A stretch of 64,000 nt of DNA from Candidatus Kapaibacterium sp. (GTDB taxonomy: Bacteria; Bacteroidota; Ignavibacteria; Kapaibacteriales; UBA2268), in NCBI GenBank assembly GCA_963665665.1, contig OY762428.1, positions 1,733,200 to 1,797,199 of the forward strand. The letters run 5' to 3'. Made by a program: the position numbers and the translations under genes. The notes under the pieces are model-generated. The model was not told the origin of the DNA. It worked only from the letters and a program-made list of their open reading frames with translations, and ran no database searches. Of this stretch, positions 16,209 to 63,415 are shown piece by piece (positions within the stretch are counted from its first letter, which is position 1; each line of letters begins with the position of its first letter).

Positions 16209-16360
16209 ATATTTGCCTGAAGCGCTATGTTCCTGCTTTTCCTTTGCTCCTGTTAAGACATATTTTGCTTTTATCATGCTGAAATTTGATATGATTTTGA
16301 GTTGTAAGTTGTAATTCCGGCCTGTTTCTGACCGTTTATGGCTATGCACATATATGTAAC

Positions 16361-18444: not shown

Positions 18445-18453
18445 TTTAGCGTC

Positions 18454-18516
18454 AGCTTAGCCATGTCAACCTCGTACAAGTCTCCAAATTGACAAAGGCC
18501 ACAGCGATCAGCCGCT
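18454..18516. repeat. 63-bp direct repeat, copy 1 (partner at 19033-19096, about 90% identical)
   Basis: The sequence agcttagccatgtcaacctcgtacaagtctccaaattgacaaaggccacagcgatcagccgct contains the inverted hexamers TGTCAA...TTGACA. Confidence 0.7.
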
Positions 18517-24988: not shown

Positions 24989-25276
24989 ATGGCAAACAAA
25001 CGAAGAAATTACAGTTCAAAATTCAAAATGCAGGTAGCCCTGGAGGCAGTCCAAGAGAGAAAAACAATAACCGAGCTGGCATCGGAGTACGGGGTTCATC
25101 CAAACCAGATAAGCATGTGGAAAAAGCATTTAAAAGAAAGTGAAAAGGAAGTATTTGAAAACAAGCGTGGGCCAGGGAAGAATAAAAAAGAAAAAGACGA
25201 ATCAGTATTATATGAAGAAATAGGCCGGCTAAAAATTGAATTAGACTGGTTAAAAAAAAAATTGGGACGTGAGTAA
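24989..25276 (+). CDS. IS3 transposase OrfA
   Basis: Protein identical to copy 1 OrfA. Confidence 0.85.
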   Translation: MANKRRNYSSKFKMQVALEAVQERKTITELASEYGVHPNQISMWKKHLKESEKEVFENKRGPGKNKKEKDESVLYEEIGRLKIELDWLKKKLGRE

Positions 25277-26114
25277 AGAAGAACGCAGGAAGATGGTAGA
25301 TGCTGATAATAAAGAAATTAGCATAAGCCGGCAGTGCGAGCTTTTGGGTATTAGCAGGAGCTGTTATTATTACAAACCCAAGGGTGAAAGTGAAGCAAAT
25401 ATTCTATATATGAAGCTGATCAAAGAACAATTCGCGATTACTCCATTTTATGGAGCCAGAAAAATGACAGCACACTTACGTTCTTTGGGATACCATGTTA
25501 ACTATAAACGAATCAGGCGATTAATGAAATTATTGGGACTTCGGGCAATATATCCCCAACCGGACACGAGCAAACCGAACAAGGAGCACAAAATTTATCC
25601 ATACCTGTTGAGGGATATGAAAATAAGTCGTCCGGATCAGGTTTGGAGCCTGGATATAACATATATTCCGATGCGTAAAGGATTTATGTATCTTATAGCA
25701 ATTATAGATGTTTATAGCAGGTATATCGTCGACTGGGAATTATCGAATAACCTTGAGAAGGAGTTCTGCATAGATACAATAAAAAGGTCTTTGAAAACCA
25801 GGAAACCGGAAATAACAAACACGGATCAGGGCAGTCAGTTCACGAGCAATGATTTTGTGAAAACGATTCTGGATGCTGATGTTAAGGTAAGCATGGACGG
25901 CAAGGGCCGCGCCTTGGACAATGTTTACATAGAACGCTTCTGGCGGAGCTTTAAATACGAAGACCTGTATCTGAAGTCTTACGAAGACGGAAAAGAGCTC
26001 TATGGCGGTATAAAGGCTTATGTCGATTGGTATAACAACACGAGGCCGCACGCAGGAATTGAATACCAGATTCCGGCTGAAAAATATATGAACGAACAGC
26101 GGTTCGTTAATTGA
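25269..26114 (+). CDS. IS3 transposase OrfB
   Basis: Protein identical to copy 1 OrfB. Confidence 0.85.
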   Translation: MSKEERRKMVDADNKEISISRQCELLGISRSCYYYKPKGESEANILYMKLIKEQFAITPFYGARKMTAHLRSLGYHVNYKRIRRLMKLLGLRAIYPQPDTSKPNKEHKIYPYLLRDMKISRPDQVWSLDITYIPMRKGFMYLIAIIDVYSRYIVDWELSNNLEKEFCIDTIKRSLKTRKPEITNTDQGSQFTSNDFVKTILDADVKVSMDGKGRALDNVYIERFWRSFKYEDLYLKSYEDGKELYGGIKAYVDWYNNTRPHAGIEYQIPAEKYMNEQRFVN

Positions 26115-36700: not shown

Positions 36701-37285
36701 ATTTTTTGTTACATTGTAAATACAAAGAGAGTCATAACTATATGAAGAAGATTGGTTGGAATCATATCTAATAAGGCAGAAAAGCCAATAATTATCACTA
36801 TCAGGTCTATTAACAGGAGTCAATTTTAATAGCAGTGCATTTTCCTCCAATATCTTTATTTCTTTAATATCGCCAAGTCCTCCATCAAGGTCTATATCAA
36901 TAACAGCACAGGCAAATTTATGATGATTATTTTCATCCTGTTCATAGAAGAGATAATATTCATTATCACTTCCGGGTTTTTTGTGCGCAAAACAAGCGTT
37001 ATAATCTGTACTTGGATATAAAATGTTACTATTTGGCATTATTTCAAATTTTTTGTTATAAACATAATTCCCATCAAAATAAAATAGTATTTTTCCTTCA
37101 GAATCTGAAATGATTGCATGCCTTCTGCTACCATAGGAATTAATCATTATAGGCTTTGGATTTACACCATTGGGATTAAATGTAATGCCAATATTTTCTG
37201 CAATACTCCAATTATAGGTTTCTTTTTGTGCAAAAGAAGCGGACAGGCTGAATAAAATCAGAAAGGCAGTAATACAATATTTCAT
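33755..37285 (-). CDS. Large secreted protein with tandem Ig-like repeats (Y-x-W-S-T-G-E-T motif x4) and T9SS C-terminal sorting domain
   Basis: 1176-aa ORF with a signal peptide. The module C-E-G...Y(K/L)WSTGET...SG.Y.V....GC recurs four times. The C-terminus is SGIYMLLLKTGTDIYSQRLIVE. Confidence 0.6.
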   Translation of the reverse strand: MKYCITAFLILFSLSASFAQKETYNWSIAENIGITFNPNGVNPKPIMINSYGSRRHAIISDSEGKILFYFDGNYVYNKKFEIMPNSNILYPSTDYNACFAHKKPGSDNEYYLFYEQDENNHHKFACAVIDIDLDGGLGDIKEIKILEENALLLKLTPVNRPDSDNYWLFCLIRYDSNQSSSYSYDSLCIYNVTKNSISYSHSINGEFASPKHWGYWIINNDIVSLDGNKYATLLGEDMDKKIAKIAIYDLNPETAEMELKKEYKIHDAVELLDFSPDGNKLWFFINNNCITQIDMNVTPDELSLGDTEVIMIPPEFSKYLEFHYNLMGPDGQLYFHLSTGQVLTENGYVKPYYLGCIDKPNFDISECKLDTINIGSTKVGNYSYPRFLNSDYHVSIDAGDTIKICEGEDLLLSGQLSRPIGDMRYSWTGPDYFESEKASPVRKNCITSFSGWYHVNATNDNFTVGDSVYVIVGKQPTAKIDNGGDNAFCEGDSLKLTAYSIPDDPDNSYLWSTGEKTKEIYAKESGKYTVEITNNQGCSDEYSVSLAVYPAPEPEILIIGDNDKCEGEEIELKVNGNYDSYKWSTGETSAAIKVNKSGIYYVSVISSQGCEGVSDEVEINFLPLPEIKISGPREVCVSEGNIYTIDNSDNCLVEWTCNFGNITSDSDKDNVATDWPQKGLGELIATKTNPVTGCAASDTLYVEIADSLHPKIIGSDIICEDGPGITLKTEQEYDTYLWSTGETVREIIVDKAGDYSVRVSGASGCDGTSDIFRITESPKPQPEVTGNIPFCEGGQIEIKLEKVYEDYLWSTGETTPSILMDDSGNFWVEVTNSSGCKGRTEFTTKKTLISVEGLSDYNFPSADIGLSDRKTVNITNTGDTEIVVGSISLKGLSGNVFTLEGNEPGAIASGAGLDFDIVFSPDLEQEYTDSVYIYVSSPCERKYSAEISGTGKAVNNEIIVSIPDLKGKPGTDNFEIPVYARTKNENTVITDINYECTISYDASMFLPLTISGADELSNSIEGYDRIIRFSGSQGKLSNENTILAKISGKLLLFNTMNNVVNIDAVNFFPTATVTRQPGSLTIEEYCAPDLRGVVFSAPPLTISPNPANARATISINSTNINNTILGIYDLLGNCIKNIDIETNGDYILNLTDFPSGIYMLLLKTGTDIYSQRLIVE

Positions 37286-41118: not shown

Positions 41119-42220
41119 ACTGAAACTCGTTTTAGCAATAATTGTTTCCTGTTATGTGAATTGTTTTTTTATCATGGGGATTAGCATTATTCGTGCAATT
41201 TTTGGCTAAAAAAAACGGGCCTTTACTGCGAAATAAACATAGAACATCCTCCGAAACAAGGTTGGACTTTGAAGCGAAATATACAGCTAAACCCTCCTTT
41301 CTTCTTCATACCCCCGTGCCCTCTCATTCATAAGCCGTGGACAGCCATAGTTTCAATTTCCTGCTTCCCGGGTTGCACTTTGGAATTCTGAAGCTCATAT
41401 CCAAAGTAGAACTTTGCAGGAAATATTCCTTCCCAGGTACAACTTGGGAAGGAGGCTTTAAGGGTGTATTGTCATTCTGAGCGCCAGCGAAGAATCCATT
41501 CTTAATACCTAATCTGCAAAGAAAGATGGATTCTTCGGTCGCTTCGCTTCGTCAGAATGACGGATGGAAATGTCCCCCGCTGGCGGGGGTGGATTCTTAA
41601 AATTCCCCTCGTTGAGGGGTGGCGAGCGCAGCGAGTTCCCGACACGTCGGGACAGGCAGGGGTGGATTCTTTTTCCGTAACCTCCCTTATCCACGAGCTA
41701 AAGCACGTGGCTATTGAATTTGACGATTATAAGGCTGGGATGTCATTCTGAGCGCCAGCGAAGAATCCATTCTTAATACCTAATCTGCAAAGAAAGATGG
41801 ATTCTTCACTTTGTTCAGAATGACGGATGGGAATGTCCCCCGCTGGCGGGGGTGGATTCTTAAAATTCCCCTCGTTGAGGGGTGGCGAGCGCAGCGAGTT
41901 CCCGACACGTCGGGACAGGCAGGGGTGGATTCTTCACACACTATCTGCAAAGAAAGATGGATTCTTCGGTCGCTTCGCTCCGTCAGAATGACAACATAAC
42001 ACCTCATTCTTTTGCTCAGTTTACCCGTTCTTCCACCCAAATGAACAGGCCGCCGGCCTTAATTCCCCAACCTGTGGTTTCAATGAATCGGATAATTTCC
42101 TTATTTCAATGCTGTTTTTAATCAAAACCATGATGTTTGGGCTAATTGCTTTGTTGGCAGGGCTTTAAACTGCCTTGGCCGGAGTTATTGAACTACTGTT
42201 TGGCCTTAATGTAGTGAAAT

Positions 42221-42865
42221 TTGGCCTCATTGAACACTTGGTTGACCTTATTGAACACTTGGTTGACCTTACTGAACACTTGGTTGACCTTATTGAACAC
42301 TTGGTTGACCTTACTGAACACTTGGTTGACCTTACTGAACACTTGGTTGACCTTACTGAACACTTGGTTGACCTTACTGAACATGTTCTTTGCCTCCGAC
42401 CAAGAGTTCAATGACTTCGACCAAGGCGTCAATAAAGCAAAACATTGCTGCAATAGTGTCGACCAAGAGTTCATTATCTTCAAACATCAGTACAATGATT
42501 TGAAACAAGGCAGCAATAACTTCGAACAAGGCAGCAATGACTCCGACCAAGGCATCAATGACTTCAACCAAGGCGTCAATAACTTCAACCAAGGCATCAA
42601 TAACTCCAAACAAGGCATCAATGACTTCGACCAAGGCATCAATAACTCCGACCAAGGCATCAATAAAGCAAAACATTGCTGCAATAGGTGCAAACAAGAG
42701 TTCATTATCTTCAAACAAGGCGGCAATAAAGCAAAACATTGGTGCAATGACTTCAACCAAGGCAGCAATAAAGCAAAACATTGCTGCAATAGTGTCGAAC
42801 AAGACCTCAATACCTCTGACCCCTCCCAAACCCTCCCCGAAGGAGAGGGCTTTGAAGAAGAATAA
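42221..42865 (+). CDS. Candidate heptad-repeat / Q-N-rich repeat protein (frame uncertain; all six frames open across the 21-bp arrays)
   Basis: 214-aa ORF spanning both arrays: MASLNTWLTLL x7 followed by DQGINNF-type 7-aa repeats and NKAKHCCN x4. It may be non-coding satellite DNA. Confidence 0.25.
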   Translation: MASLNTWLTLLNTWLTLLNTWLTLLNTWLTLLNTWLTLLNTWLTLLNTWLTLLNMFFASDQEFNDFDQGVNKAKHCCNSVDQEFIIFKHQYNDLKQGSNNFEQGSNDSDQGINDFNQGVNNFNQGINNSKQGINDFDQGINNSDQGINKAKHCCNRCKQEFIIFKQGGNKAKHWCNDFNQGSNKAKHCCNSVEQDLNTSDPSQTLPEGEGFEEE

Positions 42866-43616
42866 GGCGGCAATGAGTTAGAACATCAGTGCAATAACTT
42901 AGACCAAGGCAGTAATAGGTTAAACCATTGGTGCTTTGCTTTCGACACTTTCTACCTCCCCCCGCCCCCCTCCTTCAAAAGGAGGGGGAGTTAATTCTAT
43001 GATATTTAACTTCTTATCCCCTCCTCGGGGAGGAGGGGAATAAAGGGGTGGTTTTCTTGCTTTGCTTTGGGTCAGGGCACATTTATCCACGCGCTAAAGC
43101 ACCTGGCCATTGAATTTGACGATTATAAGGCTGGGATGTAATCCTGAGCACCAGTGAAGAATCCATTCTTAATACCTAATCTGCAAAGAAAGATGGATTC
43201 TTCACTTTGTTCAGAATGACGGATGGGAATGTCCCCCGCTGGCGGGGGTGGATTCTTAAAATTCCCCTCGTTGAGGGGTGGCGAGCGCAGCGAGTTCCCG
43301 ACACGTCGGGACAGGCAGGGGTGGATTCTTCACACACTATCTGCAAAGAAAGATGGATTCTTCGGTCGCTTCGCTCCGTCAGAATGACAACATAACACCT
43401 CATTCTTTTGCTCAGTTTACCCGTTCTTCCACCCAAATGAACAGGCCGCCGGCCTTAATTCCCCAACCTGTGGTTTCAATGAATCGGATAATTTCCTTAT
43501 TTCAATGCTGTTTTTAATCAAAACCATGATGTTTGGGCTAATTGCTTTGTTGGCAGGGCTTTAAACTGCCTTGGCCGGAGTTATTGAACTACTGTTTGGC
43601 CTTAATGTAGTGAAAT

Positions 43617-44282
43617 TTGGCCTCATTGAACACTTGGTTGACCTTATTGAACACTTGGTTGACCTTACTGAACACTTGGTTGACCTTATTGAACACTTGG
43701 TTGACCTTACTGAACACTTGGTTGACCTTACTGAACACTTGGTTGACCTTACTGAACACTTGGTTGACCTTACTGAACACTTGGTTGACCTTACTGAACA
43801 TGTTCTTTGCCTCCGACCAAGAGTTCAATGACTTCGACCAAGGCGTCAATAAAGCAAAACATTGCTGCAATAGTGTCGACCAAGAGTTCATTATCTTCAA
43901 ACATCAGTACAATGATTTGAAACAAGGCAGCAATAACTTCGAACAAGGCAGCAATGACTCCGACCAAGGCATCAATGACTTCAACCAAGGCGTCAATAAC
44001 TTCAACCAAGGCATCAATAACTCCAAACAAGGCATCAATGACTTCGACCAAGGCATCAATAACTCCGACCAAGGCATCAATAAAGCAAAACATTGCTGCA
44101 ATAGGTGCAAACAAGAGTTCATTATCTTCAAACAAGGCGGCAATAAAGCAAAACATTGGTGCAATGACTTCAACCAAGGCAGCAATAAAGCAAAACATTG
44201 CTGCAATAGTGTCGAACAAGACCTCAATACCTCTGACCCCTCCCAAACCCTCCCCGAAGGAGAGGGCTTTGAAGAAGAATAA
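43617..44282 (+). CDS. Second tandem copy of the candidate repeat protein (221 aa; one extra heptad)
   Basis: Identical to 42221-42865 except for one additional 21-bp unit. Confidence 0.25.
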   Translation: MASLNTWLTLLNTWLTLLNTWLTLLNTWLTLLNTWLTLLNTWLTLLNTWLTLLNTWLTLLNMFFASDQEFNDFDQGVNKAKHCCNSVDQEFIIFKHQYNDLKQGSNNFEQGSNDSDQGINDFNQGVNNFNQGINNSKQGINDFDQGINNSDQGINKAKHCCNRCKQEFIIFKQGGNKAKHWCNDFNQGSNKAKHCCNSVEQDLNTSDPSQTLPEGEGFEEE

Positions 44283-44765
44283 GGCGGCAATGAGTTAGAA
44301 CATCAGTGCAATAACTTAGACCAAGGCAGTAATAGGTTAAACCATTGGTGCTTTGCTTTCGACACTTCCTACCTCCCCCCGCCCCCCTCCTTCAAAAGGA
44401 GGGGAAGTTAATTCTATGATATTTAACTTCTTATCCCCTCCTAAAGTAGGAGGGGAATACAGGGGTGGTTTTCTTGCTTTGCTTCCGGTCAGGGCACATT
44501 TATCCACGCGCTAAAGCACCTGGCCATTGAATTTGACGATTATAAGGCTGGGATGTAATCCTGAGCACCAGTGAAGAATCCATTCTTCACACACTATCTA
44601 ACTAAAGAAGATGGATTCTTCCGTCGCTTCGCTCCGTCAGAATAACAGATGAAGAGTACGCTGCTGCCATGCAGAAAATGTGATGGAATATTATCATTAC
44701 ATAATCATCTTATAATCTATTACCTGCTTACAATTATATATTACATTGAACCGTTCATAGTTATT

Positions 44766-47389: not shown

Positions 47390-49570
47390 TTGAAAGGTAT
47401 CCCTATGAGAATTCCCTTACGAACTTCGAAATGTATATTCCGGATTATTCCTTTTTTACTTTTTTTCATCCATATCAGCTTGTCGGCACAGGATCCGAGA
47501 TATATCAACACCAAAGACCATTCTGTTCTGATAAATGCCTTAGCGAATGAAGCGGACAATTCAATAACCCTGAGTTGGCTGGAGAATGACCTGGAACTGG
47601 GATATAAAATTGAAAGAAGAAAGCTCGGAGCCTCCTATTTCCCGATATCGCCACTGGCAGAGCTGGAAGGAAAGATTCATGAATTTGTTGATAATGGTGT
47701 TGAACCTGGGCAAATTTATGAATATAAGATTACCGGCCTTCGCAATGGCTCTGTATCTCTTACCTTTGAAAGACAGGACGGAACTGAATTCGATTCGGCT
47801 GTTGCATTTAATTTCAATTCCTACGGCTATATTCTTGCAGGAGTAAAAGCAGTTAGCGATAATCAGACTGGCAGGCTGCTTTTGCTTGTTGATGAAACAA
47901 TTGCCGAACCTTTGCAAGCTGAAATTGAACGATACAAAATTCAGGCAGCCAACGAAGGCTGGGATGTTGTCAGCCGTGAAGTCCCGAGAACTGAAAAATT
48001 TGACGGGAACGCCGTTGTTCAGGTAAAATCAGTGATACTGGATGTATATACTGAATATCAGGATCTTAGCCATATATTTATTCTCGGCAGGGTGGCAGTC
48101 CCCTATTCGGGCAGAATCAATCCCGACGCACACAAAAATCATATTGGTGCCTGGCCTGCTGATGTTTATTACGGAATTGCCTACGACAACAACTGGAAAG
48201 ATCAGACAATATATGATACTTCCGCTTCACGCCAACAAAACAGGAACATACCCGGCGACGGAAAATTCGACATATCAATGCTTAGTACCGCGATAGTTAA
48301 TTTCGCCGTGGGCAGGGTTGATTTTTATGACATGCCGGAGTTTGAAGAAAATGAGATCGAACTTCTCCGGAACTATCTTGACAAGAACTATCAATACAGA
48401 ACCGGTAATACCGCTTATCAGACACGCGGCCTTGTTGATGACAACTTCGGTGCCAAAAAATATCTGGAAGGCTTCGGATCAAGCGGCTGGAGAAATCTTG
48501 CGTCTCTTTGCGGAAAAGACAATGTAGTTTCGCTTGACTGGTTTACTACACTTGAAGAACAGTCATATCTGTGGGCTTACGGTTGCGGTGGCGGCACATA
48601 TATTAAAGCCGGAGGAATAGGATTTACGGAGAACTTTGCAAACGCCCCCGCCGTGAATGCTGTTTTCACTATGCTTTTCGGATCTTATTTCGGAGACTGG
48701 GATTCTCAGAACAATTTTCTAAGGGCATCACTTGCATCGAAACCTTCGATTCTGACATGTGCCTGGGCCGGTAGGCCGCCCTGGTATTTTCACCACATGG
48801 CAGCTGGTATGAATATTGGTTTTTCTACTGTGCTTTCGCAAACAAATTCCACTGAATACCTGCCAAATGGTTACTTCCTGAATGGCCCGAATGGAAATGC
48901 AAGCGTTCAGCAATACGGCACTAAGCAGGTACACGCAGCCCTGATGGGCGACCCTACACTGAGAATGTTTATGGGAAATAAAGCCCCGGAAAATTTCAAA
49001 GTTACTAGCAATGAAAACGGTACTGCTCTTCTTACCTGGAACAGCCCCGATGGTGTTTCTGATGATCACTATTTTGATGTTTACCAGGACTATCTGCCTG
49101 ATAACGAAAGTTTTGAAAAAATTAATATTGAACCTGTCAGAACAAATAGCTTTGATATTGGTTATGAAACCGACGGAGACTATAAATTCAAACTTGTACT
49201 GATGGAACTTAAGGAAACCAATACCGGATCGTTCTACATGCAGGGAGAATGCAGCACAGTGCAGGCCACCCTGCTTGACGTGCCTGAAGACGAGAGGGCA
49301 AACAGCCTGATATCCCAACCTAATCCTGCCACGGATAATTCTACAATTACAATAAGCATGGCCAATCCCGCCGAACTAAGGGTTGTGGTTTATGATATTG
49401 CGGGTTTGCCTGTAAAAACACTGTTCGGCGGCAGGAAAGCGGCAGGAAGCCATAGTATAGCCTGGTCTCTTACTGATGATGGCGGACACAAGCTTCCCGC
49501 AGGAGTTTACTTTATACATTATTCAATCGGAAGCCAAAGCGGTTCTGAAAAGATAGTAATATTAAGGTAG
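47390..49570 (+). CDS. T9SS-sorted secreted protein with N-terminal FN3 domain; possible C25 (gingipain-like) peptidase-like middle region
   Basis: Signal peptide, FN3-like region (ITLSWLENDLELGYKIERRK...IYEYKI), and a C-terminal T9SS CTD (VVVYDIAGLPVKTLF...GVYFIHYS...KIVILR). The peptidase assignment is weak. Confidence 0.45.
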   Translation: MKGIPMRIPLRTSKCIFRIIPFLLFFIHISLSAQDPRYINTKDHSVLINALANEADNSITLSWLENDLELGYKIERRKLGASYFPISPLAELEGKIHEFVDNGVEPGQIYEYKITGLRNGSVSLTFERQDGTEFDSAVAFNFNSYGYILAGVKAVSDNQTGRLLLLVDETIAEPLQAEIERYKIQAANEGWDVVSREVPRTEKFDGNAVVQVKSVILDVYTEYQDLSHIFILGRVAVPYSGRINPDAHKNHIGAWPADVYYGIAYDNNWKDQTIYDTSASRQQNRNIPGDGKFDISMLSTAIVNFAVGRVDFYDMPEFEENEIELLRNYLDKNYQYRTGNTAYQTRGLVDDNFGAKKYLEGFGSSGWRNLASLCGKDNVVSLDWFTTLEEQSYLWAYGCGGGTYIKAGGIGFTENFANAPAVNAVFTMLFGSYFGDWDSQNNFLRASLASKPSILTCAWAGRPPWYFHHMAAGMNIGFSTVLSQTNSTEYLPNGYFLNGPNGNASVQQYGTKQVHAALMGDPTLRMFMGNKAPENFKVTSNENGTALLTWNSPDGVSDDHYFDVYQDYLPDNESFEKINIEPVRTNSFDIGYETDGDYKFKLVLMELKETNTGSFYMQGECSTVQATLLDVPEDERANSLISQPNPATDNSTITISMANPAELRVVVYDIAGLPVKTLFGGRKAAGSHSIAWSLTDDGGHKLPAGVYFIHYSIGSQSGSEKIVILR

Positions 49571-52144: not shown

Positions 52145-53770
52145 ATGCCCAAATTTATCTTATTTTGTATTATTGCTTTTAGCTTTGTCTCATCGCCTCA
52201 TCTTAAAGCTGACGAGGATTCCCGTGAAGGAGATTCTCTGGCCCTGGTAGCACTGTATAATTCAACAAACGGCCCGGAATGGTATGATAGCAGAAACTGG
52301 CTCAGCAATGAACCTATTGACAAATGGGAAGGAATTGAAGTTCGTAATAACAGAGTTTTCTGCATCGATTTAATACGTAATGATTTGGTTGGTGAATTAC
52401 CTGATGAGATTGGCAACCTAAAGTGGGTGCACTATTTTGCTTTGGCATTTAATCGCCTGGAAGGATCAATACCTGAAACTATTACAAATATTGGAAATTG
52501 CCAACTTCTTTATCTTAATGCTAATTGCCTGACTGGGCATATTCCAGATTCAATTTCTAAACTACAAAATCTTTTATGGCTTGATCTTAGTAATAATCGC
52601 CTGACTGGAAAGATTCCGAATTCTATATGTAGTATGAAAAAACTATCATCCATAGACCTTAGTCACAATATCATTTTTGGCGAATTGCCTGAAAAATTGT
52701 ATGAAATGGAAAATTTATCGAAATTAATATTAAGTGATAATAAAATAAGCGGCAATTTTATCGAACCCCTGCAAAATGCAAAAGAACTAAAGGAATTGTA
52801 TTTGAACAATAATGACATGATTGGAAGTTTAACTGATGATCTGTCTGGTTTTACCCGATTAGAAGTTTTAAATATCAGCTATAATAATTTTAGCGGATCA
52901 ATAACAAATAATCTTTCCGCTTTTTCAAAATTGAAAATCCTTGATATTAGTAATAATTATTTTTCAGGGACTATCCCGTCCGGGTTAAGTGCTTTAAAGG
53001 ATTTAGAAAAGTTTGATATATCAGGAAATAATTTTTCGGGCCAAATACCGAAGGAATTAACTGAATTACCTGAACTATCAGTTCTAAATCTGTCTTATAA
53101 TATGTTTCAGGAAAAGTTTGACTTTGAATTAGATTCTCTGAAAAATTTAGACTATCTATATCTCGGAAATAATAAATACCAGTTTGATATGTTCGAAGAG
53201 ATTTATTCAGTTTTCGATCGACTGGACTATTATTGGATATCTCCTCAGGACTCAATCGGAGAAGCCCAAACCATTATAGCTGATCTGTATGATAATATAA
53301 TCCTATCGGCAGAATGCAGGGGGCTAAATAATATTTATCAATGGTATAAAGATAGAAAAGCTTTCAGTGAAAAATCGGATAACCCATTTCTTGAAATAAA
53401 TAATTTTTCTAAAATTGATACAGGTGTATATATTTGTAAAATAACCAATTCTTTAATTAAAGGTTTAAGAATCTATAGTAAACCACAGGTATTAAAATTA
53501 CCTCCTATGGGAATAAACGAAAACAATCAGGTTGTTAAGGATGATTTTGAAATATTTTTGGATTCTGAAAACCATTTGGCCGCAAAGTGGAACAATTTTC
53601 TTAGGGATGTGATTTTATATATTCACGATATTCGGGGCAGCAAAATATATGAAATCAATCCAGAAGGCAATTGTACAAATATCCCTGTGAATAACTTTTC
53701 ACCGGGAGTTTATATCTGTACAATTTCCGATGGCCTTAAATCATTTTCTAAAAAATTCATTGTCAGGTAG
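52145..53770 (+). CDS. Leucine-rich repeat (LRR) protein with T9SS C-terminal sorting domain
   Basis: Repeated LxxLxxLDLSNNxLTGxIP units, a signal peptide, and C-terminus PGVYICTISDGLKSFSKKFIVR. Confidence 0.75.
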   Translation: MPKFILFCIIAFSFVSSPHLKADEDSREGDSLALVALYNSTNGPEWYDSRNWLSNEPIDKWEGIEVRNNRVFCIDLIRNDLVGELPDEIGNLKWVHYFALAFNRLEGSIPETITNIGNCQLLYLNANCLTGHIPDSISKLQNLLWLDLSNNRLTGKIPNSICSMKKLSSIDLSHNIIFGELPEKLYEMENLSKLILSDNKISGNFIEPLQNAKELKELYLNNNDMIGSLTDDLSGFTRLEVLNISYNNFSGSITNNLSAFSKLKILDISNNYFSGTIPSGLSALKDLEKFDISGNNFSGQIPKELTELPELSVLNLSYNMFQEKFDFELDSLKNLDYLYLGNNKYQFDMFEEIYSVFDRLDYYWISPQDSIGEAQTIIADLYDNIILSAECRGLNNIYQWYKDRKAFSEKSDNPFLEINNFSKIDTGVYICKITNSLIKGLRIYSKPQVLKLPPMGINENNQVVKDDFEIFLDSENHLAAKWNNFLRDVILYIHDIRGSKIYEINPEGNCTNIPVNNFSPGVYICTISDGLKSFSKKFIVR

Positions 53771-53810: not shown

Positions 53811-54566
53811 TTACGGACTTTCTATCCTTACAGACTGCACTATCTGGTTCTGCCACATTGAATATAGCGTAGTTTTTATCTCTTCTTTCAATTTGTCATT
53901 AAGTTCCGGTTCATGTCGTTTTTGTACTTTGTATAAAGAATATTTATCAGCCTCCTGAATTGGTCCGACAATCTCACCTTCGTCGGCAGTAAATACTTTT
54001 CCTTCAATTTCCGGCGCAAGCATTCCCCTGCGTATATTACCGATATTTCCACCTGACATCTTCAGGCCCGGATCTTCGGAATACTTAGTGGAAAGCCCGG
54101 AAAAATCCTTGCCGTCGTCACGTGCTTCCATCAGCAGTTCCTCGGCCTCTCCTTTTTTTGAAACTAAAATCTTCAGCAGGTCCACGGTAAGGTAGAGCAT
54201 TTTATTCTGAATAAAATACTGCTCAATTTTATCATCGCCAATGATTGTTTTTTTTACCTTGGTTTCAAGAAATTCAAATTCTATGCTATCTATCCACTGG
54301 TCAGAGGTAATTCCCATCTGGGAAAAATACTGCTGCGTTTCCTTCGCTGATATTAGTCCGAGTTTTTTTCGTTTATCATTAACGTAATTTTGCAACTCAT
54401 CATCACTAACTTCAATTTTCTGATGCTTGGCAAAATCCTGGATAGCCCTGATTCTGATCAGATCCTGAAGGGCCTGGCGAAACTTCCCCTGTGTTTTCAG
54501 CAGGATAAGTATGTCATTCTGGGTAACCTCAGCATCATTTACTTTAATAATTACATTGTTTTCCAT
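53811..54566 (-). CDS. Peptidyl-prolyl cis-trans isomerase, parvulin-type (SurA/PrsA-like)
   Basis: C-terminal parvulin region GGNIGNIRRGMLAPEIEGKVFTADEGEIVGPIQ. The N-terminal region resembles the SurA N-terminal domain. Confidence 0.55.
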   Translation of the reverse strand: MENNVIIKVNDAEVTQNDILILLKTQGKFRQALQDLIRIRAIQDFAKHQKIEVSDDELQNYVNDKRKKLGLISAKETQQYFSQMGITSDQWIDSIEFEFLETKVKKTIIGDDKIEQYFIQNKMLYLTVDLLKILVSKKGEAEELLMEARDDGKDFSGLSTKYSEDPGLKMSGGNIGNIRRGMLAPEIEGKVFTADEGEIVGPIQEADKYSLYKVQKRHEPELNDKLKEEIKTTLYSMWQNQIVQSVRIESP

Positions 54567-54638: not shown

Positions 54639-55925
54639 TTACAATGAAGCAGCATAGTTTTTAAATGCAGCTTCTTTCACCATGCTCATGAAAGCCTCAT
54701 TTTCATTAAGGAATTTCATAATATCGTCAGCGCCGGTTTTCGCCTCATAGAATTTATTTATTGTTGCGCCTTTTTCGCACATATCAGCCCATGTATCTTC
54801 GCAAATTGCATGAGCATCAAGCCATGCGCCGGTTTCTGCAGCGTTGTGCAGTCCGTTCATTCTGCGCAGGTTGTCCGAAAAATCATTTATTTCTTTATCA
54901 GTTGCTTTAATACCTTCAGTACCGGCAGCATTGAAGAGTTTAGCATAAGTTACCATATCGTTCAGGGCAGCTGCAAATTCTTTTGAAGCCAGAACAGCTT
55001 TCACGATTTTCTCATCATTGAAAAGTTCAATACCGTCTTTGGCAAATTTGCGTTTCAAAAGCTCGGTAACTACCATGTACTCGAATTCATCCATGCTGAG
55101 CCCTGTGGAATTCAGCCATGTTTCGAAAGTAGCAACAGAGTGAAGTTTCATTATCCTGCGGAAATTATCTACAAATTCCTGGATTTCGTTTTCTTCAATG
55201 TCAATATTGTTTTTCTTTGCTTTTGCATGGATAATCTGGCCGAAGAGCATATCGGAAATCAGGCTGTTCAGCACGGGATACTTCTGTAATGCATTAGCAA
55301 TCTCATTCCTGAAGAATTCTTCCAGGTTTTCATCCTGAAGCTGATTAAGTACAATACCAGAATGTACATGTTTTTCCCAGTCGTCTTCATTCATACGTAC
55401 AGCCGCAAGGAATGTCTGAAATTCTTCCAGGCTGTGCATACCCATAATCCTGCGAATATCGTCGGATGTTTCCTGAAGAATTTTGTCATCGGCTGCAATA
55501 CCTTTTGCTTTGGCCTTATTGATAATTTCATCAGTAATATGATTTCTAACTTCAGGAATACCTTTTACAAGTTTCCATGCATCAGCCATTACAACTGAAT
55601 TACCAATAGCAGCACGGGCTTTTTCCCTGAACAATTCATTTTCCAGGGTTTCTTCCCATTCGTCAAGAGTAATTCCCAGCGCTTCAAAGAAATTATTTGT
55701 TTCATTTGCATTGTGCAGCCCGAGTTCCAGCCGCCTGAGATCGGAATATGCCTGCAAAGTTTCGTCGCTTATCTGCAAACCGCCATGAACCGCGTGGTCC
55801 CTGATAACTTCGTTCATAACGACAGTTCTGCGAGCATTGTGGTAAGAGCCGTTCATTTTCATAAATGCCAAAACATCTTTTGCTGTGATTTTGGTTCCGG
55901 CTATGTCGCATAAAGTTTTGTCCAT
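54639..55925 (-). CDS. Protein with four internal SurA-N-like repeats (periplasmic chaperone-like)
   Basis: Four repeats of about 100 aa, each carrying a (L/M)H(N/S)x..(F/W)..LGI(T/S)(L/M)(D/E)(E/D)WE motif. Confidence 0.35.
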   Translation of the reverse strand: MDKTLCDIAGTKITAKDVLAFMKMNGSYHNARRTVVMNEVIRDHAVHGGLQISDETLQAYSDLRRLELGLHNANETNNFFEALGITLDEWEETLENELFREKARAAIGNSVVMADAWKLVKGIPEVRNHITDEIINKAKAKGIAADDKILQETSDDIRRIMGMHSLEEFQTFLAAVRMNEDDWEKHVHSGIVLNQLQDENLEEFFRNEIANALQKYPVLNSLISDMLFGQIIHAKAKKNNIDIEENEIQEFVDNFRRIMKLHSVATFETWLNSTGLSMDEFEYMVVTELLKRKFAKDGIELFNDEKIVKAVLASKEFAAALNDMVTYAKLFNAAGTEGIKATDKEINDFSDNLRRMNGLHNAAETGAWLDAHAICEDTWADMCEKGATINKFYEAKTGADDIMKFLNENEAFMSMVKEAAFKNYAASL

Positions 55926-56105
55926 TGTCTCTCCGGGTGAATGTGTATAATGTATTTTCTACTTGGATAGCCATTTTTTGAATTTACATATAGTGAATAT
56001 AAAAAAAAACTTTATATGATAAAAAAAATTTATTATCTTTTCCTAAGAAAAATTATACATTCAGAACCTATTCAAGATTTTTTCATCATATCAGGGATAA
56101 AAATT

Positions 56106-56573
56106 ATGGCAAAGATTAAAATCAATGACCTGGAACAAAATTCCGAACTTGATGCCAAAGCAATGAAATCAGTAGTTGGCGCAGGCCTTATTGATCAAAG
56201 CAGCGGAATAAGCGGCAATACCGGACACAAAACCGGGGGCTCGGCAACAAACCAGGGCGACCAGACAGGTGGTGCCGGCGGAGCAGGCGGAAGCTCATTT
56301 GGTATTAATGATACAGATAACTTCGGAGGCCACGGCGGAGGTGCAAGCCAATATACCGGAGGCGGCCATCACGACTGGTGGGGCTGGGGTTGGGGCGGCG
56401 GTGGCTCTATTACCGGTTCGAACGCTACCGGCGGAGCAGGCGGCGGTGTAACAAGCATTGGCGCAGTTGGCGGAGCAGGTGGTGCAGGCGGTGCTGCAGT
56501 AGGAGCAATGGGTGGCGCTGTTTCTGATAATGTATCAACATCCATCTCAATGCCCGTTACCATGAATATTTAA
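56106..56573 (+). CDS. Glycine-rich peptide with double-glycine-type leader (candidate bacteriocin/RiPP precursor)
   Basis: The leader MAKIKINDLEQNSELDAKAMKSVVGA|G fits the LSxxELxxIxGG spacing. The core is Gly/Ala/Ser-rich and contains HHDWWGWGWGGGG. Confidence 0.5.
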   Translation: MAKIKINDLEQNSELDAKAMKSVVGAGLIDQSSGISGNTGHKTGGSATNQGDQTGGAGGAGGSSFGINDTDNFGGHGGGASQYTGGGHHDWWGWGWGGGGSITGSNATGGAGGGVTSIGAVGGAGGAGGAAVGAMGGAVSDNVSTSISMPVTMNI

Positions 56574-56593
56574 TTAATCCGGTTATTGGAACT

Positions 56594-56626
56594 AAAAAAG
56601 GCAGGATTTTCATCCTGCCTTTTTTA
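56594..56626. terminator. Bidirectional rho-independent terminator between the Gly-rich gene and yidC
   Basis: AAAAAA GGCAGGA ttttca TCCTGCC TTTTTT. Confidence 0.7.
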
Positions 56627-56628: not shown

Positions 56629-58572
56629 TTATTTTTTCTTTTTACCGCCCTGTTTCGGAGATGATTTTTTTACATCTTTTTTCTTGGGTGGAATATATCC
56701 TTTTCTTTCAGTTCCGCCCGAACCGGCCTTCTTGCCCGGAACAGTCTTGCCCTGGGAAGCAGCTACTTCCTGTGCCTCGCGGAGTTTTTTCTGGAACCAG
56801 CCTTCCTTCTTAGGTGCTTTTTTAAGATCATCCAGGGTAAGCTGATTTTTTGAAAACTTATTAATATAAACCTGCTGAATAATACCTACCAGGTTGAACA
56901 TGAAATAATAAAGGTTCAAACCTGACGGGAAGCTTGAGAAAAGAAGGGTGAACATGACAGGCATCATGTAAACCATTGCTTTCTGCCTCGGGTCGGTTAT
57001 TGTCAGTTTCTGCTGGATAAACATTGTTACGCCCATGGCAAGGGCCAGCCCGCTGAACTGGTCGATATTAAAAAGCGGTATCCTGAACGGCAACGAAACA
57101 AGTACATCCGGTACCGAAAGGTCATTAATCCACCAGATAAATTCCGTCTGCCTGAGATCAATGGCCGAGCGGAGGATTGACCATAGCGAATACAGGATTG
57201 GCATCTGCAGCAATAACGGCAGGCAGCCGCCGGCGGGGTTTACTCCGTACTCGGAATAAAGTTTCATAGTAGCCTGCTGCTGTTTTGTGTTGTCGTCCTT
57301 GTATTTCTCCCTCAATTTCTCCATTTCCGGCTGGAGAAGCTTCATTTTGTTGGCGCTTCTCATCTGTTGGATGGATAGGGGATAGAGAAGAATTTTTATC
57401 AGAATAGAGAACAGAATTATTGCCACGCCGTAATTGGGTACAAAATCATGTATGAACTGAAGGATCGGCAGCATGAAGAACTCGCCTATTGGCCTTACCA
57501 GCCATTTCCAGCCCATATCAATAGTTTCACTCAACCCGTATTCCGAAAGAATATCATATTCCATCGGGCCGATATAAACCATAAATTTATTGGTGCTGGA
57601 AGCATTCCTGTAAGGAATTCTGTAGGACATATTGTATTTTTCTACAAGGCCTTCGTTTCTAACTGCTTTTTGCCTGCCACTCAAATCGATAGTGCCATCA
57701 AAATCTCCCTGTGGCCGGGGCATAATAGCAGCAACAAAATACTTCAGCTTTATGGCAGTATAATCCACGATGCCTGTAGGTGAAATACGCTGCTCTTCGG
57801 ATTCATCGGCGTTCAGGTATTCAATTTCCCCGTTCATCGAGGCCATGGCTTCTGCGGAATTGGATTCATCAACAGAATTCTTTTCCTGGTAGCTCAGGCC
57901 GTCGGACCATATAAAATTGTAACCGCGTTCAGGTATAAAAGACTGCATATTCTGAAGGCTGATATCCGTATTTATATGATATTTATCGGCGTAAATAACA
58001 AAAGTTTTATTGATATACTTATCAGGAGCAACATTCAGCCGTGCATTAAGCAGAATGGAGTCTTTACCTGATATTTGATAATAATCTTTATCAAGATTAA
58101 AATCGAAGAACAGGTCGCGGGAATCAATTTTCTTGCCTTCATAAGTAAGGAATTCAAGGAAAAGTTCACCTTTCTTATCAGAGATAAGCTGTGTTGGTTT
58201 CTTATCCCATTTTTTATAATTTTTCAATTCCCATTTTACCAGGTCGCCACCCATTGTAGAGAACTTTGCAGTAACAAGGTCAGTTTCAATAGTAATAACT
58301 TTCCTGTTACCATTGGCAAATGGTGCAAAAGTTTTTCCGAATTTGAGCTCATTGACGTTACTTGCGTTTGCTGAAGTTGCAGAATCGCTAAGGATATCGT
58401 CAGCTGAATCAGCAGAAGCAGTGTCGGTCTGTGCTTTTTGCTCAACAAGTGTTGAATCATTAATATTTTGATTTTTTTCGGGCAGGTCCGGCGCTGTCAT
58501 CTGATTATAAATGAGCCATGCCGCAACTATCAGCGTAATTAGCAGAATTGCCAGTAAATTATTTCTGTCCAT
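56629..58572 (-). CDS. yidC: Membrane protein insertase YidC (long Bacteroidota form)
   Basis: Conserved TM2/TM3 region [44 protein letters not shown] and a K-rich C-terminus. It is preceded by yidD, rnpA and rpmH. Confidence 0.9.
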
Positions 58573-62584: not shown

Positions 62585-63415
62585 ATGAAAATATCCAAGT
62601 TATTGATTATTTTTTCAATATTATTTCTTTCAACAGCAATCTCTGTTTTAGCTCAGCTAAGTATTGAAATTGCTGATACCACACTACAAAGAGGAGAAGA
62701 CAATAAAATTCTACTCCCTGTAAAAATCAACCTGCCCCCCGGTGATATAAATTCAGTAACTATAAAATTCAAATACGATGCGAGGATAATTGATATTAGT
62801 TCCGTTTCCGGCGGTACTGACTATATTATGCTCAGCCAGGCCCCTGATATTAAAAAAAGCTTTTCAGTTCTTGAGGAAGCTGACATAACTGTTAGTGACA
62901 ATACAATAGCGCCGGACAATGGCAATATTCTTTGTGTTTTTGAAATTGAAGGCCTTGCCGCCGAAGATTCAATAGCTTATATCGAACCGGTCGAGCTATA
63001 TATCGATAATGAATTAAAAGAAGAGGCTGAATTGGCCAGAGCCACGATAAAAGTTACCGGGGATGCGATTATCAGGATTCTGCCAGAGGGCCTTGGGGAT
63101 AATTACCCCAACCCCTTTTACCAGAACACCAGGGTAATTTTCAATATCAAAAAAGAAACAAATGTAACGTTTTCACTTTTCTCTGTTATTGGTGAAAAAG
63201 TAGCCGATTCGGAAAGCTCCACTGAAGAGATAAAATTTGAATTTTTTACAAAAGACGGTACACCACTTGATGTAGAGAGCAACCCCAGGCTGCAACCCGG
63301 AAAATATGAACTCCTTCTGACTCCCCTAAACTGGAAATTTGCAAGCGGCCCTTATTACCTGCTACTGGAAACCGGTAGCGGAGCTTACAACAAATCAATA
63401 TTATATCATAAGTAA
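62585..63415 (+). CDS. Secreted protein with T9SS C-terminal sorting domain
   Basis: Signal peptide. The C-terminal domain begins LGDNYPNPFYQNTRVIFNI (NYPNPF hallmark) and ends YYLLLETGSGAYNKSILY. Confidence 0.6.
   Translation: MKISKLLIIFSILFLSTAISVLAQLSIEIADTTLQRGEDNKILLPVKINLPPGDINSVTIKFKYDARIIDISSVSGGTDYIMLSQAPDIKKSFSVLEEADITVSDNTIAPDNGNILCVFEIEGLAAEDSIAYIEPVELYIDNELKEEAELARATIKVTGDAIIRILPEGLGDNYPNPFYQNTRVIFNIKKETNVTFSLFSVIGEKVADSESSTEEIKFEFFTKDGTPLDVESNPRLQPGKYELLLTPLNWKFASGPYYLLLETGSGAYNKSILYHK

What the first reader, a model, noticed from the sequence alone, without database searches (positions are those of the whole stretch)
56106..56573. Glycine-rich peptide with a double-glycine-type leader: candidate bacteriocin/RiPP precursor without a cognate transporter in the window
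The leader MAKIKINDLEQNSELDAKAMKSVVGA|G matches the LSxxELxxIxGG spacing (L-12, M-7, V-4, G-2). The 128-aa core is about 40% Gly with HHDWWGWGWGGGG and GAGGAGG runs, reminiscent of glycine-rich microcins and bacteroidetocin-like peptides. The gene stands alone between convergent housekeeping genes and is terminated by a strong bidirectional hairpin.
Basis: partly seen in the sequence, partly recalled or inferred. Interest (0 to 1): 0.55.

Follow-up and report, generated by a model that had tools for sequence, protein, structure and literature searches.

The report
Glycine-rich secreted peptide with dedicated chaperones
This is a real, conserved gene for a glycine-rich protein with a cleavable export leader; it is paired with two dedicated chaperone-like genes and belongs to a rare, undescribed family that in related bacteria sits beside a peptide-cleaving export pump, though whether the product is an antibiotic is unknown.

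Summary
The ORF at 56106-56573 (+) is real. It encodes a 26-aa double-glycine-type leader (cut predicted after G25-A26) and a 129-aa anionic core that is 34% Gly, not about 40%. It evolves under purifying selection (dN/dS about 0.1-0.2).

It does not stand alone. It is transcribed divergently from a 428-aa cytoplasmic protein built of four SurA-N-like repeats, followed by a 251-aa PrsA-like protein whose parvulin domain lacks both signature histidines. This peptide/SurA-like pair recurs in six other lineages, in unrelated genomic neighbourhoods.

In two of those lineages (L016, L017) the module lies within 10 kb of a HlyD-like adaptor and a long-type cNMP-binding C39-peptidase ABC transporter. 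L016 also has a TolC-like protein and an ATP-grasp gene. The 64-kb window has none of these.

The family has three conserved paralog types, A, B and C. A type C copy lies elsewhere on the 5.46-Mb contig that matches the window.

The family is very rare: four clusters among 1.84 billion representative proteins.

Export as cargo of a peptidase-containing ABC transporter is well supported. A bacteriocin role is plausible but untested, and the strongly conserved core argues partly against it.

The parts
56106..56183 (+). Leader peptide (26 aa, MAKIKINDLEQNSELDAKAMKSVVGA). It is of double-glycine type, with cleavage predicted after G25-A26.
   Evidence: Sequence. Twenty homologs share the architecture and end in GG (GA only in this lineage). 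Weak, sub-cutoff hit to the GG-leader model TIGR04149 (E 0.013).
56184..56573 (+). Core of the type A Gly-rich protein plus stop codon. The core is 129 aa, 11.7 kDa, pI 4.7, 34% Gly, with no Cys, Arg or Glu, one Lys (K42) and one Pro (P150). Its conserved C-terminus is ...VSDNxSxSISxPVTMNI.
   Evidence: Composition. Conservation. dN/dS of the core is 0.08-0.18 between type A orthologs. AF2 gives no confident fold (pLDDT 36.8).
56593..56626 (.). Hairpin AAAAAAGGCAGGAT-TTTC-ATCCTGCCTTTTTT with A and T flanks. It is terminator-like in both directions and is shared with the convergent yidC.
   Evidence: sequence.
55926..56105 (.). 180-bp AT-rich divergent intergenic region between the peptide gene and the SurA-N-like gene. 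It presumably holds both promoters.
   Evidence: The same divergent arrangement occurs in L002, L005, L006/L016, L009, L012 and L017. Promoters were not mapped.
54639..55925 (-). 428-aa cytoplasmic all-alpha protein with four SurA-N-like repeats (motif LQxxSDxxRRxxGLHxxxxFxxWL...W). It is the invariable partner of the type A peptide gene.
   Evidence: Pfam SurA_N_3, and NCBIfam TIGR04500 at 86.8 bits against a cutoff of 180. Fourteen homologs. Conserved adjacency. AF2 pLDDT 82.9 with 22 helices. No signal peptide, read from the sequence.
53811..54566 (-). 251-aa PrsA-like protein with a SurA-N-like N-domain and a parvulin (PpiC) domain. It has no signal peptide or lipobox, and both parvulin signature histidines are replaced (K132, S210).
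   Evidence: Pfam Rotamase E 6e-12, NCBIfam PrsA-type hits, TIGR04500 at 46.9 bits. Best PDB match is PrsA 6vj6, with residue alignment. The His replacements are conserved in six orthologs. Its N-terminal 95 aa are 34% identical to the 428-aa protein.

Best explanation
The gene encodes the type A member of a three-paralog family (A, B, C) of glycine-rich secreted proteins.

Proposed steps, each marked shown or inferred:
1. The precursor is made in the cytoplasm with a 26-aa double-glycine-type leader (shown from sequence).
2. The two co-encoded cytoplasmic proteins hold the aggregation-prone precursor in an export- or modification-competent state. These are the four-repeat SurA-N-like protein and the PrsA-like protein with a degenerate parvulin domain. 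This step is inferred from conserved adjacency and from the chaperone or partner roles of SurA, PrsA and MirC.
3. A long-type (cNMP-binding) C39-peptidase ABC transporter, working with a HlyD-like adaptor and a TolC-like channel, cuts the leader after G25-A26 and exports the 129-aa anionic core. This is inferred from linkage in orthologous loci; in this genome the transporter must be encoded outside the window.
4. Outside the cell the mature protein probably acts together with paralogs B and C. Its Gly/Ala/Val-rich segment (residues about 113-140, with eight GxxxG motifs in residues 100-145) suggests membrane insertion like class II microcins. I rate an antimicrobial role at about 40%, and a non-antibiotic extracellular role as the main alternative.
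For: - Leader: conserved in 20 homologs, and the only ORF in the window matching the leader profile.
- Real gene: dN/dS 0.09-0.19.
- Partner module: the peptide/SurA-N-like pair is conserved in the window/L001, L002-4/L012, L005, L006/L016, L009 and L017, in unrelated neighbourhoods spanning 30-51% GC.
- Transporter linkage: L016 carries HlyD-like, cNMP-C39-ABC (1020 aa), a 759-aa protein, a TolC-like protein, a 341-aa protein and an ATP-grasp gene immediately upstream of peptide A. L017 carries HlyD-like and cNMP-C39-ABC 4-8 kb downstream. The distant L007 has SurA-like, PpiC, HlyD-like and cNMP-C39-ABC in a row. The three transporters are 52-67% identical and carry the C39 motif DCGAAC.
- Precedents: long-type C39 ABC + HlyD + SurA-rotamase clusters with GG precursors up to 164 aa (PMC3140520). 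A TIGR04500 SurA-like protein is an obligatory partner in a RiPP cluster that has a peptidase-containing ABC transporter (PMC13097080).
- Paralogs in the same genome: window proteins match exactly proteins on a 5,458,198-bp contig that also encodes the type C peptide P0020. In L013, a near-identical strain, P0020 sits beside a type B peptide sharing the lineage-specific VVGAGL / GNTGHK features.
Against: - No transporter, adaptor or TolC-like gene in the 64-kb window. Its presence elsewhere in this genome was not testable.
- Cleavage and export are not demonstrated.
- No sequence relation to any known bacteriocin or microcin.
- The core is more conserved than the leader, and the paralog types are conserved across lineages. 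That fits a conserved structural or signalling role better than an arms-race toxin.
- The candidate immunity genes are not next to the window gene: a small lipoprotein between B and C, and a CPBP protease in L014/L015.
- The parvulin domain lacks its signature histidines, so prolyl isomerisation of the single Pro is doubtful.
Confidence: 0.65

Rival explanations
1. A non-antibiotic extracellular protein. A, B and C would be exported by the same peptidase-containing ABC transporter route but would self-assemble or act as matrix, adhesion or signalling components. The closest analogy is the EbfG1-4 GG-motif proteins, which Synechococcus exports through PteB for biofilm formation.
For: - The core C-terminal part is the most conserved region: 79% mean identity, against 65% for the leader.
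- Paralog types A, B and C are conserved across genomes of 30-51% GC.
- The composition is rich in G/N/Q/S/T and has no predicted fold.
- A conserved lipoprotein lies between B and C.
- The loci sit among housekeeping genes.
- Precedents for non-toxin cargo of such transporters: EbfG/PteB (PMC4997328), and HetC, a long-type cNMP transporter of this class needed for heterocyst differentiation (PMC10986499).
Against: - No similarity to EbfG was tested or known.
- No fibre, amyloid or matrix evidence.
- A CPBP/Rce1-like gene, a type often linked to bacteriocin immunity (from general knowledge), lies next to B in L014/L015.
- The Gly/Ala/Val-rich GxxxG segment equally fits membrane-active peptides.
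Confidence: 0.3
2. A post-translationally modified RiPP. The SurA-like protein would be the obligatory partner of a modifying enzyme, as MirC is for the graspetide synthetase MirB. The enzyme would be an ATP-grasp ligase as in L016, encoded elsewhere in this genome. It would cross-link or extend the core, for example through the single conserved Lys (K42) and the invariant Asp (D141).
For: - In L016 an ATP-grasp gene sits at the end of a run of abutting or overlapping genes (HlyD-like, C39-ABC, 759 aa, TolC-like, 341 aa, ATP-grasp), next to peptide A.
- Its best NCBIfam hits are RiPP ATP-grasp maturases: TIGR04187 at E 2e-9, plus MvdD and MvdC.
- The parts list (precursor, TIGR04500-like SurA-like protein, TIGR03796-like transporter, ATP-grasp) matches the rosaritide cluster (PMC13097080).
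- K42 and D141 are invariant in 10 of 10 sequences, and both are kept in the distant homologs P0031 and P0032.
- L008 has a LynF/TruF/PatF-like prenyltransferase homolog directly upstream of its SurA-like gene.
Against: - An ATP-grasp gene was seen in only one of seven lineages. None is in the window, nor in the sequenced flanks of L002, L005, L009 or L013.
- The scores are far below family cutoffs: 37 bits against 350.
- The core has very few conserved acidic residues, unlike known graspetides.
- A strongly conserved 129-aa core is atypical of RiPPs.
Confidence: 0.15
3. An ordinary Gly-rich cell-surface or structural protein secreted by Sec or the type IX secretion system, or a spurious low-complexity ORF.
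For: Low-complexity Gly-rich sequence leaves several overlapping frames open. Many proteins with a type IX sorting domain are encoded nearby.
Against: - No hydrophobic signal peptide, lipobox or type IX C-terminal domain in any of about 20 homologs.
- Purifying selection in this frame.
- Conserved start and leader.
Confidence: 0.02

Closest known systems
Cyanobacterial 'bacteriocin' gene clusters of groups I, II and VI (Wang, Fewer, Sivonen 2011, PMC3140520)
   Same: They combine a long-type C39-peptidase ABC transporter (with an N-terminal extension of about 300 aa, the cNMP-binding region), HlyD and a rotamase-type SurA protein with double-glycine precursors. Those precursors reach 164 aa and their cores are often rich in Gly, Ser and Thr. 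L007, L016 and L017 reproduce this gene set.
   Different: - The host here encodes many proteins with type IX secretion sorting domains, which points to the Bacteroidota-related FCB group rather than cyanobacteria.
- There is an extra 428-aa protein made only of SurA-N-like repeats.
- The leader is not of the NHLP or N11P type.
- The cargo is a conserved A/B/C triad with a strongly conserved core.
- In the window genome the module is separated from the transporter.
- None of the cyanobacterial products has been characterised either.
Rosaritide graspetide cluster MirA-D (Carter et al. 2026, PMC13097080)
   Same: A cytoplasmic SurA-like chaperone-domain protein of the TIGR04500 family (MirC) is encoded with a precursor and a TIGR03796-type peptidase-containing ABC transporter, and acts as an obligatory partner protein. 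The window proteins hit TIGR04500 at E 1.6e-24 and 2.2e-12. L016 also has an ATP-grasp gene.
   Different: - The TIGR04500 scores are well below the cutoff: 86.8 and 46.9 bits against 180.
- No ATP-grasp gene in the window or in most loci.
- The precursor is about five times larger, Gly-rich and poor in acidic residues.
- There are two partner proteins instead of one.
Class II (Gly-rich) microcins such as colicin V, MccE492 and MccH47 (comparison from general knowledge; review PMC10233263)
   Same: A GG/GA leader of 15-26 aa, a Gly/Ala-rich anionic core, and export by a C39 ABC transporter with a HlyD-type adaptor and TolC.
   Different: - No detectable sequence homology.
- The mature product is 11.7 kDa, above the usual limit of under 10 kDa.
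- No Ser-rich C-terminus for siderophore attachment.
- No adjacent small membrane immunity gene.
- Dedicated cytoplasmic chaperone-like genes are present.
- The core is conserved rather than diversified.
- The host is not an enterobacterium.
EbfG1-4 / PteB of Synechococcus elongatus (PMC4997328) and HetC of Nostoc (PMC10986499)
   Same: Several paralogous small proteins with GG secretion motifs are exported by a peptidase-containing ABC transporter for a non-antibiotic purpose (biofilm). HetC is a long-type transporter of this class with a cNMP-type domain, like those in L016 and L017, and its substrate is still unknown.
   Different: Those are cyanobacterial systems, and no SurA-like partner is described for EbfG.
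TIGR04149 GG-Bacteroidales rSAM-modified RiPP precursors and bacteroidetocins (PMC6671954)
   Same: A Bacteroidota-type GG leader. The only curated model that touches the peptide is TIGR04149 (leader residues 3-25).
   Different: - The score is 15.3 bits against a cutoff of 25.
- No radical-SAM gene was seen next to any of the loci examined.
[quoted passage not shown]

Membership tests
Double-glycine leader cargo of peptidase-containing ABC transporters | N-terminal leader of about 15-30 aa ending in G-G/A/S, with hydrophobic residues at -4, -7 and -12, and no Sec-type hydrophobic core | tested here: met
   The leader is 26 aa, with V-4, M-7, L-12, G-2 and A-1. The same pattern occurs in 20 homologs, 18 of which end in GG. 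The N-terminus is charged with no hydrophobic stretch, read from the sequence; hydropathy profile.
Double-glycine leader cargo of peptidase-containing ABC transporters | Genetic linkage to a C39-peptidase ABC transporter (with adaptor), in this window | tested here: not met
   tblastn of the L007, L016 and L017 transporters and HlyD-like proteins against the window gives no hit at E<0.1.
Double-glycine leader cargo of peptidase-containing ABC transporters | Genetic linkage to a C39-peptidase ABC transporter in orthologous loci | tested here: met
   In L016 the HlyD-like gene and the cNMP-C39-ABC gene (54-3116) lie about 6 kb from peptide A (9372-9839). In L017 the peptide is at 3365-3829, HlyD-like at 9486-10892 and C39-ABC at 10901-13942. 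Pfam Peptidase_C39 E 1e-35. The catalytic Cys motif is present.
Double-glycine leader cargo of peptidase-containing ABC transporters | Leader actually removed at the GG/GA site during export | not testable with these tools
   This needs an in vitro C39 assay or mass spectrometry of the secreted product.
Class II microcins / Gly-rich bacteriocins | Sequence homology to a known microcin or bacteriocin family | tested here: not met
   Pfam gives none and NCBIfam gives only the sub-cutoff TIGR04149 leader hit. Plasmid tblastn gives none. PDB gives none.
Class II microcins / Gly-rich bacteriocins | Dedicated immunity gene next to the structural gene | tested here: inconclusive
   No immunity gene was recognised next to the window gene. 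A small lipoprotein lies between paralogs B and C in L006, L009, L011, L013 and L014, and a CPBP/Rce1-like gene lies in L014/L015. Their function is unknown.
Class II microcins / Gly-rich bacteriocins | Antimicrobial activity of the mature peptide | not testable with these tools
TIGR04500 (PpiC_rel_mature, putative peptide maturation system protein) | Score at or above the curated cutoff of 180 bits | tested here: not met
   The 428-aa protein scores 86.8 bits and the 251-aa protein 46.9 bits. They are related to the family but are not members.
Parvulin (PpiC-type) peptidyl-prolyl isomerase | Rotamase domain with the conserved dual-histidine motif | tested here: not met
   The domain is present (Pfam Rotamase E 6e-12). 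However, the first His is K or R and the second is S, T, C, E or A in all six orthologs. Catalysis is therefore doubtful.
Graspetide (ATP-grasp-modified RiPP), partner-dependent type | ATP-grasp maturase encoded with the precursor | tested here: not met
   None in the window. It is present only in L016, with weak hits to TIGR04187, MvdD and MvdC (37 bits against a cutoff of 350).
Cyanobacterial group I/II/VI bacteriocin-type clusters | Long-type C39 ABC transporter, HlyD and a rotamase SurA protein together with GG precursors | tested here: inconclusive
   The complete set is present in L016 and L017, and in L007 without a visible precursor. In the window only the SurA-like and rotamase genes plus the precursor are present.

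The most novel reading that the evidence does not exclude
The A/B/C glycine-rich proteins would be the first defined cargo of HetC-type long (cNMP-regulated) peptidase-containing ABC transporters outside cyanobacteria. They would not be classical bacteriocins but a conserved three-component extracellular assembly. Its unusually large cores (113-129 aa) would need a dedicated cytoplasmic four-repeat SurA-like partner and, in some lineages, an ATP-grasp ligase, for example to form a K42-D141 isopeptide. That would make this a new class of partner-dependent, ribosomally made, glycine-rich secreted product.
Probability: 0.2. Interest if true: 0.75.

Novelty: new variant of a known kind. Interest (0 to 1): 0.55.

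Why it matters
- Long-type peptidase-containing ABC transporters with cNMP-binding domains are widespread, but their natural substrates are essentially unknown. HetC's substrate is still sought (PMC10986499), and the cyanobacterial clusters with SurA/rotamase genes have not been characterised (PMC3140520).
- This family gives a clear, conserved cargo-plus-chaperone module for such transporters in a different bacterial group, so the question becomes directly testable.
- It extends the recent finding that SurA-like cytoplasmic proteins act as partner proteins in peptide maturation (PMC13097080).
- It adds an unusual cargo type: about 12 kDa, 34% Gly, no Cys, and a conserved core.
- If the product is antimicrobial, it would be a new microcin-like class from non-enterobacterial Gram-negative bacteria.

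Tried and rejected
- **Single-sequence homolog search with the peptide:** nothing found. The later profile search scored only the 8000 candidates sharing most words, so Gly-rich words probably swamp the word index. The family was reached instead through the neighbouring gene and then with peptide profiles.
- **Metagenome scans:** the scan with peptide patterns found nothing. The alignment of the 428-aa family was too diverse to derive patterns. The trimmed alignment gave only L012.
- **AF2 of the peptide with 10 sequences:** pLDDT 36.8, uninformative.
- **Polyglycine-II or period-3 idea:** Gly autocorrelation at lag 3 is only 0.10, so there is no support.
- **Foldseek of the 428-aa model against PDB:** nothing significant. 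The best E was 0.3; a leptospiral protein (3nrk) scored probability 0.57 over 121 columns. A profile search against PDB sequences gave only noise.
- **The 335-361-aa protein next to paralog B as a PatF-like prenyltransferase:** hhalign probability 0.14% against the L008 DUF5838 protein, no PDB hit, no Pfam or NCBIfam hit. The idea is not supported and the function remains unknown.
- **Homology between the two lipoprotein groups:** hhalign probability 35%, E 4e-4, inconclusive.
- **Rfam on the whole window:** no match.
- **Plasmid tblastn and a PDB profile search with the peptide:** none.
- **Wasted look-ups:** one search used minus-strand coordinates that cut the start codon, as did part. One search, with correct coordinates, found no exact product on record in that index, although P0024 is 100% identical to the window protein.

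Full report
**The observation**

The ORF at 56106-56573 (+) exists as described. It encodes 155 aa.
- The leader is 26 aa (MAKIKINDLEQNSELDAKAMKSVVGA) and is charged rather than hydrophobic.
- The core is 129 aa: 34% Gly (44 of 129, not about 40%), 11.7 kDa, pI 4.7. It has no Cys, Arg or Glu, one Lys, one Pro and four Trp.
- A hairpin with A- and T-rich flanks at 56593-56626 separates it from the convergent yidC gene (56629-58572, -).
- A longer 185-aa reading from 56016 is used by one public gene call. However, all orthologs begin at the MAKI/MSRI/MARI position, so 56106 is the likely start.

**It is a real, constrained gene**

A direct homology search with the peptide found nothing. A later profile search scored only the 8000 candidates sharing most words, so Gly-rich words probably swamp the word index. 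The family was found through the divergent neighbour instead.
- Fourteen homologs of the 428-aa protein at 54639-55925 (-) were recovered.
- In every lineage with enough flanking DNA and at least 41% identity, a 148-155-aa Gly-rich peptide gene lies just upstream on the opposite strand. These lineages are L002-4/L012, L005, L006/L016, L009 and L017, besides the near-identical L001.
- Alignments show 59-79% identity among these type A peptides.
- The motifs GNTG(T/H)K(T/S)GG, an aromatic (H)W(F)xW patch, IGAVGGAGGAGG and the C-terminus VSDNxSxSxSxPxTMN(I/L) are nearly invariant.
- dN/dS is 0.09-0.19 with saturated dS.
- The C-terminal 56 residues are the most conserved part (79% mean identity), ahead of the leader (65%) and the N-terminal core (57%).
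- Within the window, only this ORF matches a profile built from 20 leaders (E 1.7e-14).

**The gene does not stand alone**

The 428-aa neighbour:
- It has no signal peptide.
- It matches SurA_N_3 in Pfam. It also matches NCBIfam TIGR04500 ('putative peptide maturation system protein') in four stretches, at 86.8 bits against a cutoff of 180.
- It contains a four-fold repeat, LQxxSDxxRRxxGLHxxxxFxxWL...W.
- AF2 predicts a confident all-alpha protein (pLDDT 82.9). No significant match was found in PDB by fold or by profile.

The next gene (53811-54566, -):
- It encodes a 251-aa PrsA-like protein, with a SurA-N-like N-domain and a parvulin domain.
- It also lacks a signal peptide. Its first 95 residues are 34% identical to the start of the 428-aa protein.
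- Both signature histidines of the parvulin domain are replaced in all six orthologs. It may therefore act as a chaperone rather than an isomerase.
- This gene follows the SurA-like gene in the window, L006/L016, L009, L017, L007 and L008, but not in L002 or L005.

**Link to an exporter**

The window contains no homolog of a C39 transporter, a HlyD-like adaptor, a TolC-like protein or an ATP-grasp enzyme. Two orthologous loci do.
- L016 carries a run of abutting or overlapping genes directly upstream of peptide A: HlyD-like, a 1020-aa cNMP-binding C39-peptidase ABC transporter, a 759-aa protein, a TolC-like protein, a 341-aa protein and an ATP-grasp enzyme.
- L017 carries HlyD-like, a 1013-aa cNMP-C39-ABC transporter and the 761-aa homolog 4-8 kb downstream of the module.
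- The distant L007 locus (29% identity for the SurA-like protein) has SurA-like, PpiC, HlyD-like and cNMP-C39-ABC genes in a row.
- The three transporters are 52-67% identical and contain the catalytic DCGAAC motif.
- Their best NCBIfam matches are type I secretion and NHLP-bacteriocin export transporters.

This is the gene set of cyanobacterial 'bacteriocin' clusters of groups I, II and VI: a long-type C39 ABC transporter, HlyD and a rotamase SurA protein (PMC3140520).

**Three paralog types, and a split system in this genome**

L006/L016 and L009 each encode three peptides:
- Type A has the W-rich patch and lies next to the SurA-like gene.
- Type B has the motif GGGGG(W/Y)LSAGGGG.
- Type C is shorter, 139-143 aa.
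- A 164-165-aa lipoprotein is encoded between B and C, and a 335-361-aa protein of unknown function lies next to B.

Every window protein tested is an exact match to a protein on one 5,458,198-bp NCBI contig. That contig also encodes the type C peptide P0020.

In L013, a contig from the same sample as the 99%-identical L001, P0020 lies in a group of four genes: the 335-aa protein, a type B peptide, the lipoprotein and type C. The type B peptide shares the unusual VVGAGL leader end and the GNTGHK motif with the window peptide. So in this organism the system is dispersed over at least two loci, and the transporter, if present, would be at a third.

**Rarity**

- A profile search of 1.84 billion representative proteins found only four clusters. 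Two are distant relatives (P0031, P0032) that keep the leader, the GWFG patch, the Lys and the ...VSDNxSDxISxPIxVxL end.
- A scan of one genome per species for 185,579 species found three loci.

**Mechanism**

Shown:
- The leader architecture.
- The conserved pairing with two cytoplasmic SurA/PrsA-like proteins.
- Linkage to long-type peptidase-containing ABC transporter systems in relatives.
- Purifying selection.

Inferred:
- The partners keep the aggregation-prone precursor soluble, or present it to the exporter or to an enzyme.
- The transporter cuts after G25-A26 and exports the core.
- The core acts outside the cell together with B and C.

A recent study shows that a TIGR04500 SurA-like protein (MirC) is an obligatory partner of a graspetide synthetase, in a cluster with a peptidase-containing ABC transporter (PMC13097080). 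This makes a partner or chaperone role credible.

It also raises the possibility of modification. The L016 ATP-grasp gene has RiPP maturases as its best hits, although weakly. The core has a single invariant Lys and a single invariant Asp. However, an ATP-grasp gene was seen in only one lineage.

**Bacteriocin or not**

For a bacteriocin role:
- The export route.
- The anionic Gly/Ala/Val-rich C-terminal segment, with eight GxxxG motifs in residues 100-145. It resembles class II microcins in composition (from general knowledge).
- Multi-peptide sets.
- The neighbouring lipoprotein, and a CPBP-type gene in L014/L015.

Against a bacteriocin role:
- No homology to any known bacteriocin.
- Size above 10 kDa.
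- A core more conserved than the leader, and paralog types conserved across genomes of 30-51% GC.
- Dedicated chaperone-like genes.

Transporters of this class are known to export non-antibiotic cargo, as with EbfG/PteB (PMC4997328) and the role of HetC in differentiation (PMC10986499). I therefore rate export as cargo of a peptidase-containing ABC transporter, with dedicated partners, as well supported. I rate an antimicrobial role at about 40%, a structural, matrix or signalling role at about 30%, and a modified-RiPP layer, which is compatible with either, at about 15%.

**Verdict**

The 'stands alone' claim is wrong, and the bacteriocin label remains a hypothesis. The finding is a new, rare variant of the known kind 'double-glycine cargo of peptidase-containing ABC transporters with SurA/rotamase accessory proteins', and is of moderate interest.

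Noticed in passing
window 7673-8518, 19647-20492, 25269-26114 (+): Three identical 281-aa ORFs. By eye they look like IS3-family transposase OrfB, so three copies of one insertion sequence within 18 kb.
   Followed up: no
window 42193-42881 and 43589-44298: Two copies, about 1.4 kb apart, of a segment filled with 21-, 42- and 63-nt tandem arrays. One array has 7-8 near-perfect copies of TGAACACTTGGTTGACCTTAC. The segment is open in several frames on both strands, and nothing explains it so far.
   Followed up: partly
window about 4600-18500: Likely an integrated mobile element. It has a TrwB/TraG-type coupling protein at 13449-15215 (Pfam). By eye only, it also has a terminase-like ORF (4634-6025), a Rep-like ORF (8756-9673) and a primase-like ORF (17395-18444). 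GC content swings between 0.30 and 0.49.
   Followed up: partly
L013:7787-8794 (-), L006:9720-10733 (+), L009:7856-8941 (-): A conserved 335-361-aa protein family of unknown function lies next to the type B peptide gene. Its invariant C-terminal motif is HHFK(F/L)(T/S)F...K.Y...E..W. It has no Pfam, NCBIfam or PDB match.
   Followed up: partly
L008:3198-4091 (+): A LynF/TruF/PatF-like peptide prenyltransferase homolog (TIGR04445 E 3.8e-25, below cutoff; Pfam DUF5838) lies directly upstream of a distant SurA-like/PpiC/HlyD-like set. No Gly-rich precursor was seen on this 7-kb contig.
   Followed up: partly
L016:3118-5397 (+), L017:13957-15326 (+): A conserved protein of about 760 aa follows the C39 ABC transporter gene in both loci. 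It has one N-terminal hydrophobic segment (by eye) and a weak, sub-cutoff phosphonate-binding-like region. The two copies are 37% identical and the role is unknown.
   Followed up: partly
L014:7665-8378 (+), L015:4293-5006 (+): A CPBP/Rce1-like intramembrane protease gene lies directly upstream of the B-lipoprotein-C group. This type is often linked to bacteriocin self-immunity (from general knowledge). It was seen only in this lineage.
   Followed up: no
window 168-4217, 33755-37285, 47390-49570, 52145-53770 (and weakly 62585-63415): Many large proteins carry the type IX secretion C-terminal sorting domain, including the LRR protein next to the module. This suggests a Bacteroidota-related (FCB group) host.
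   Followed up: partly
L009-L011 record titles: The three genome-collection loci carrying this family are labelled 'uncultured Hyphomicrobiales'. Another family member, P0012, is labelled Bacteroidota, so the two labels disagree. I suspect the Hyphomicrobiales label is a binning or taxonomy error, but this was not checked.
   Followed up: no
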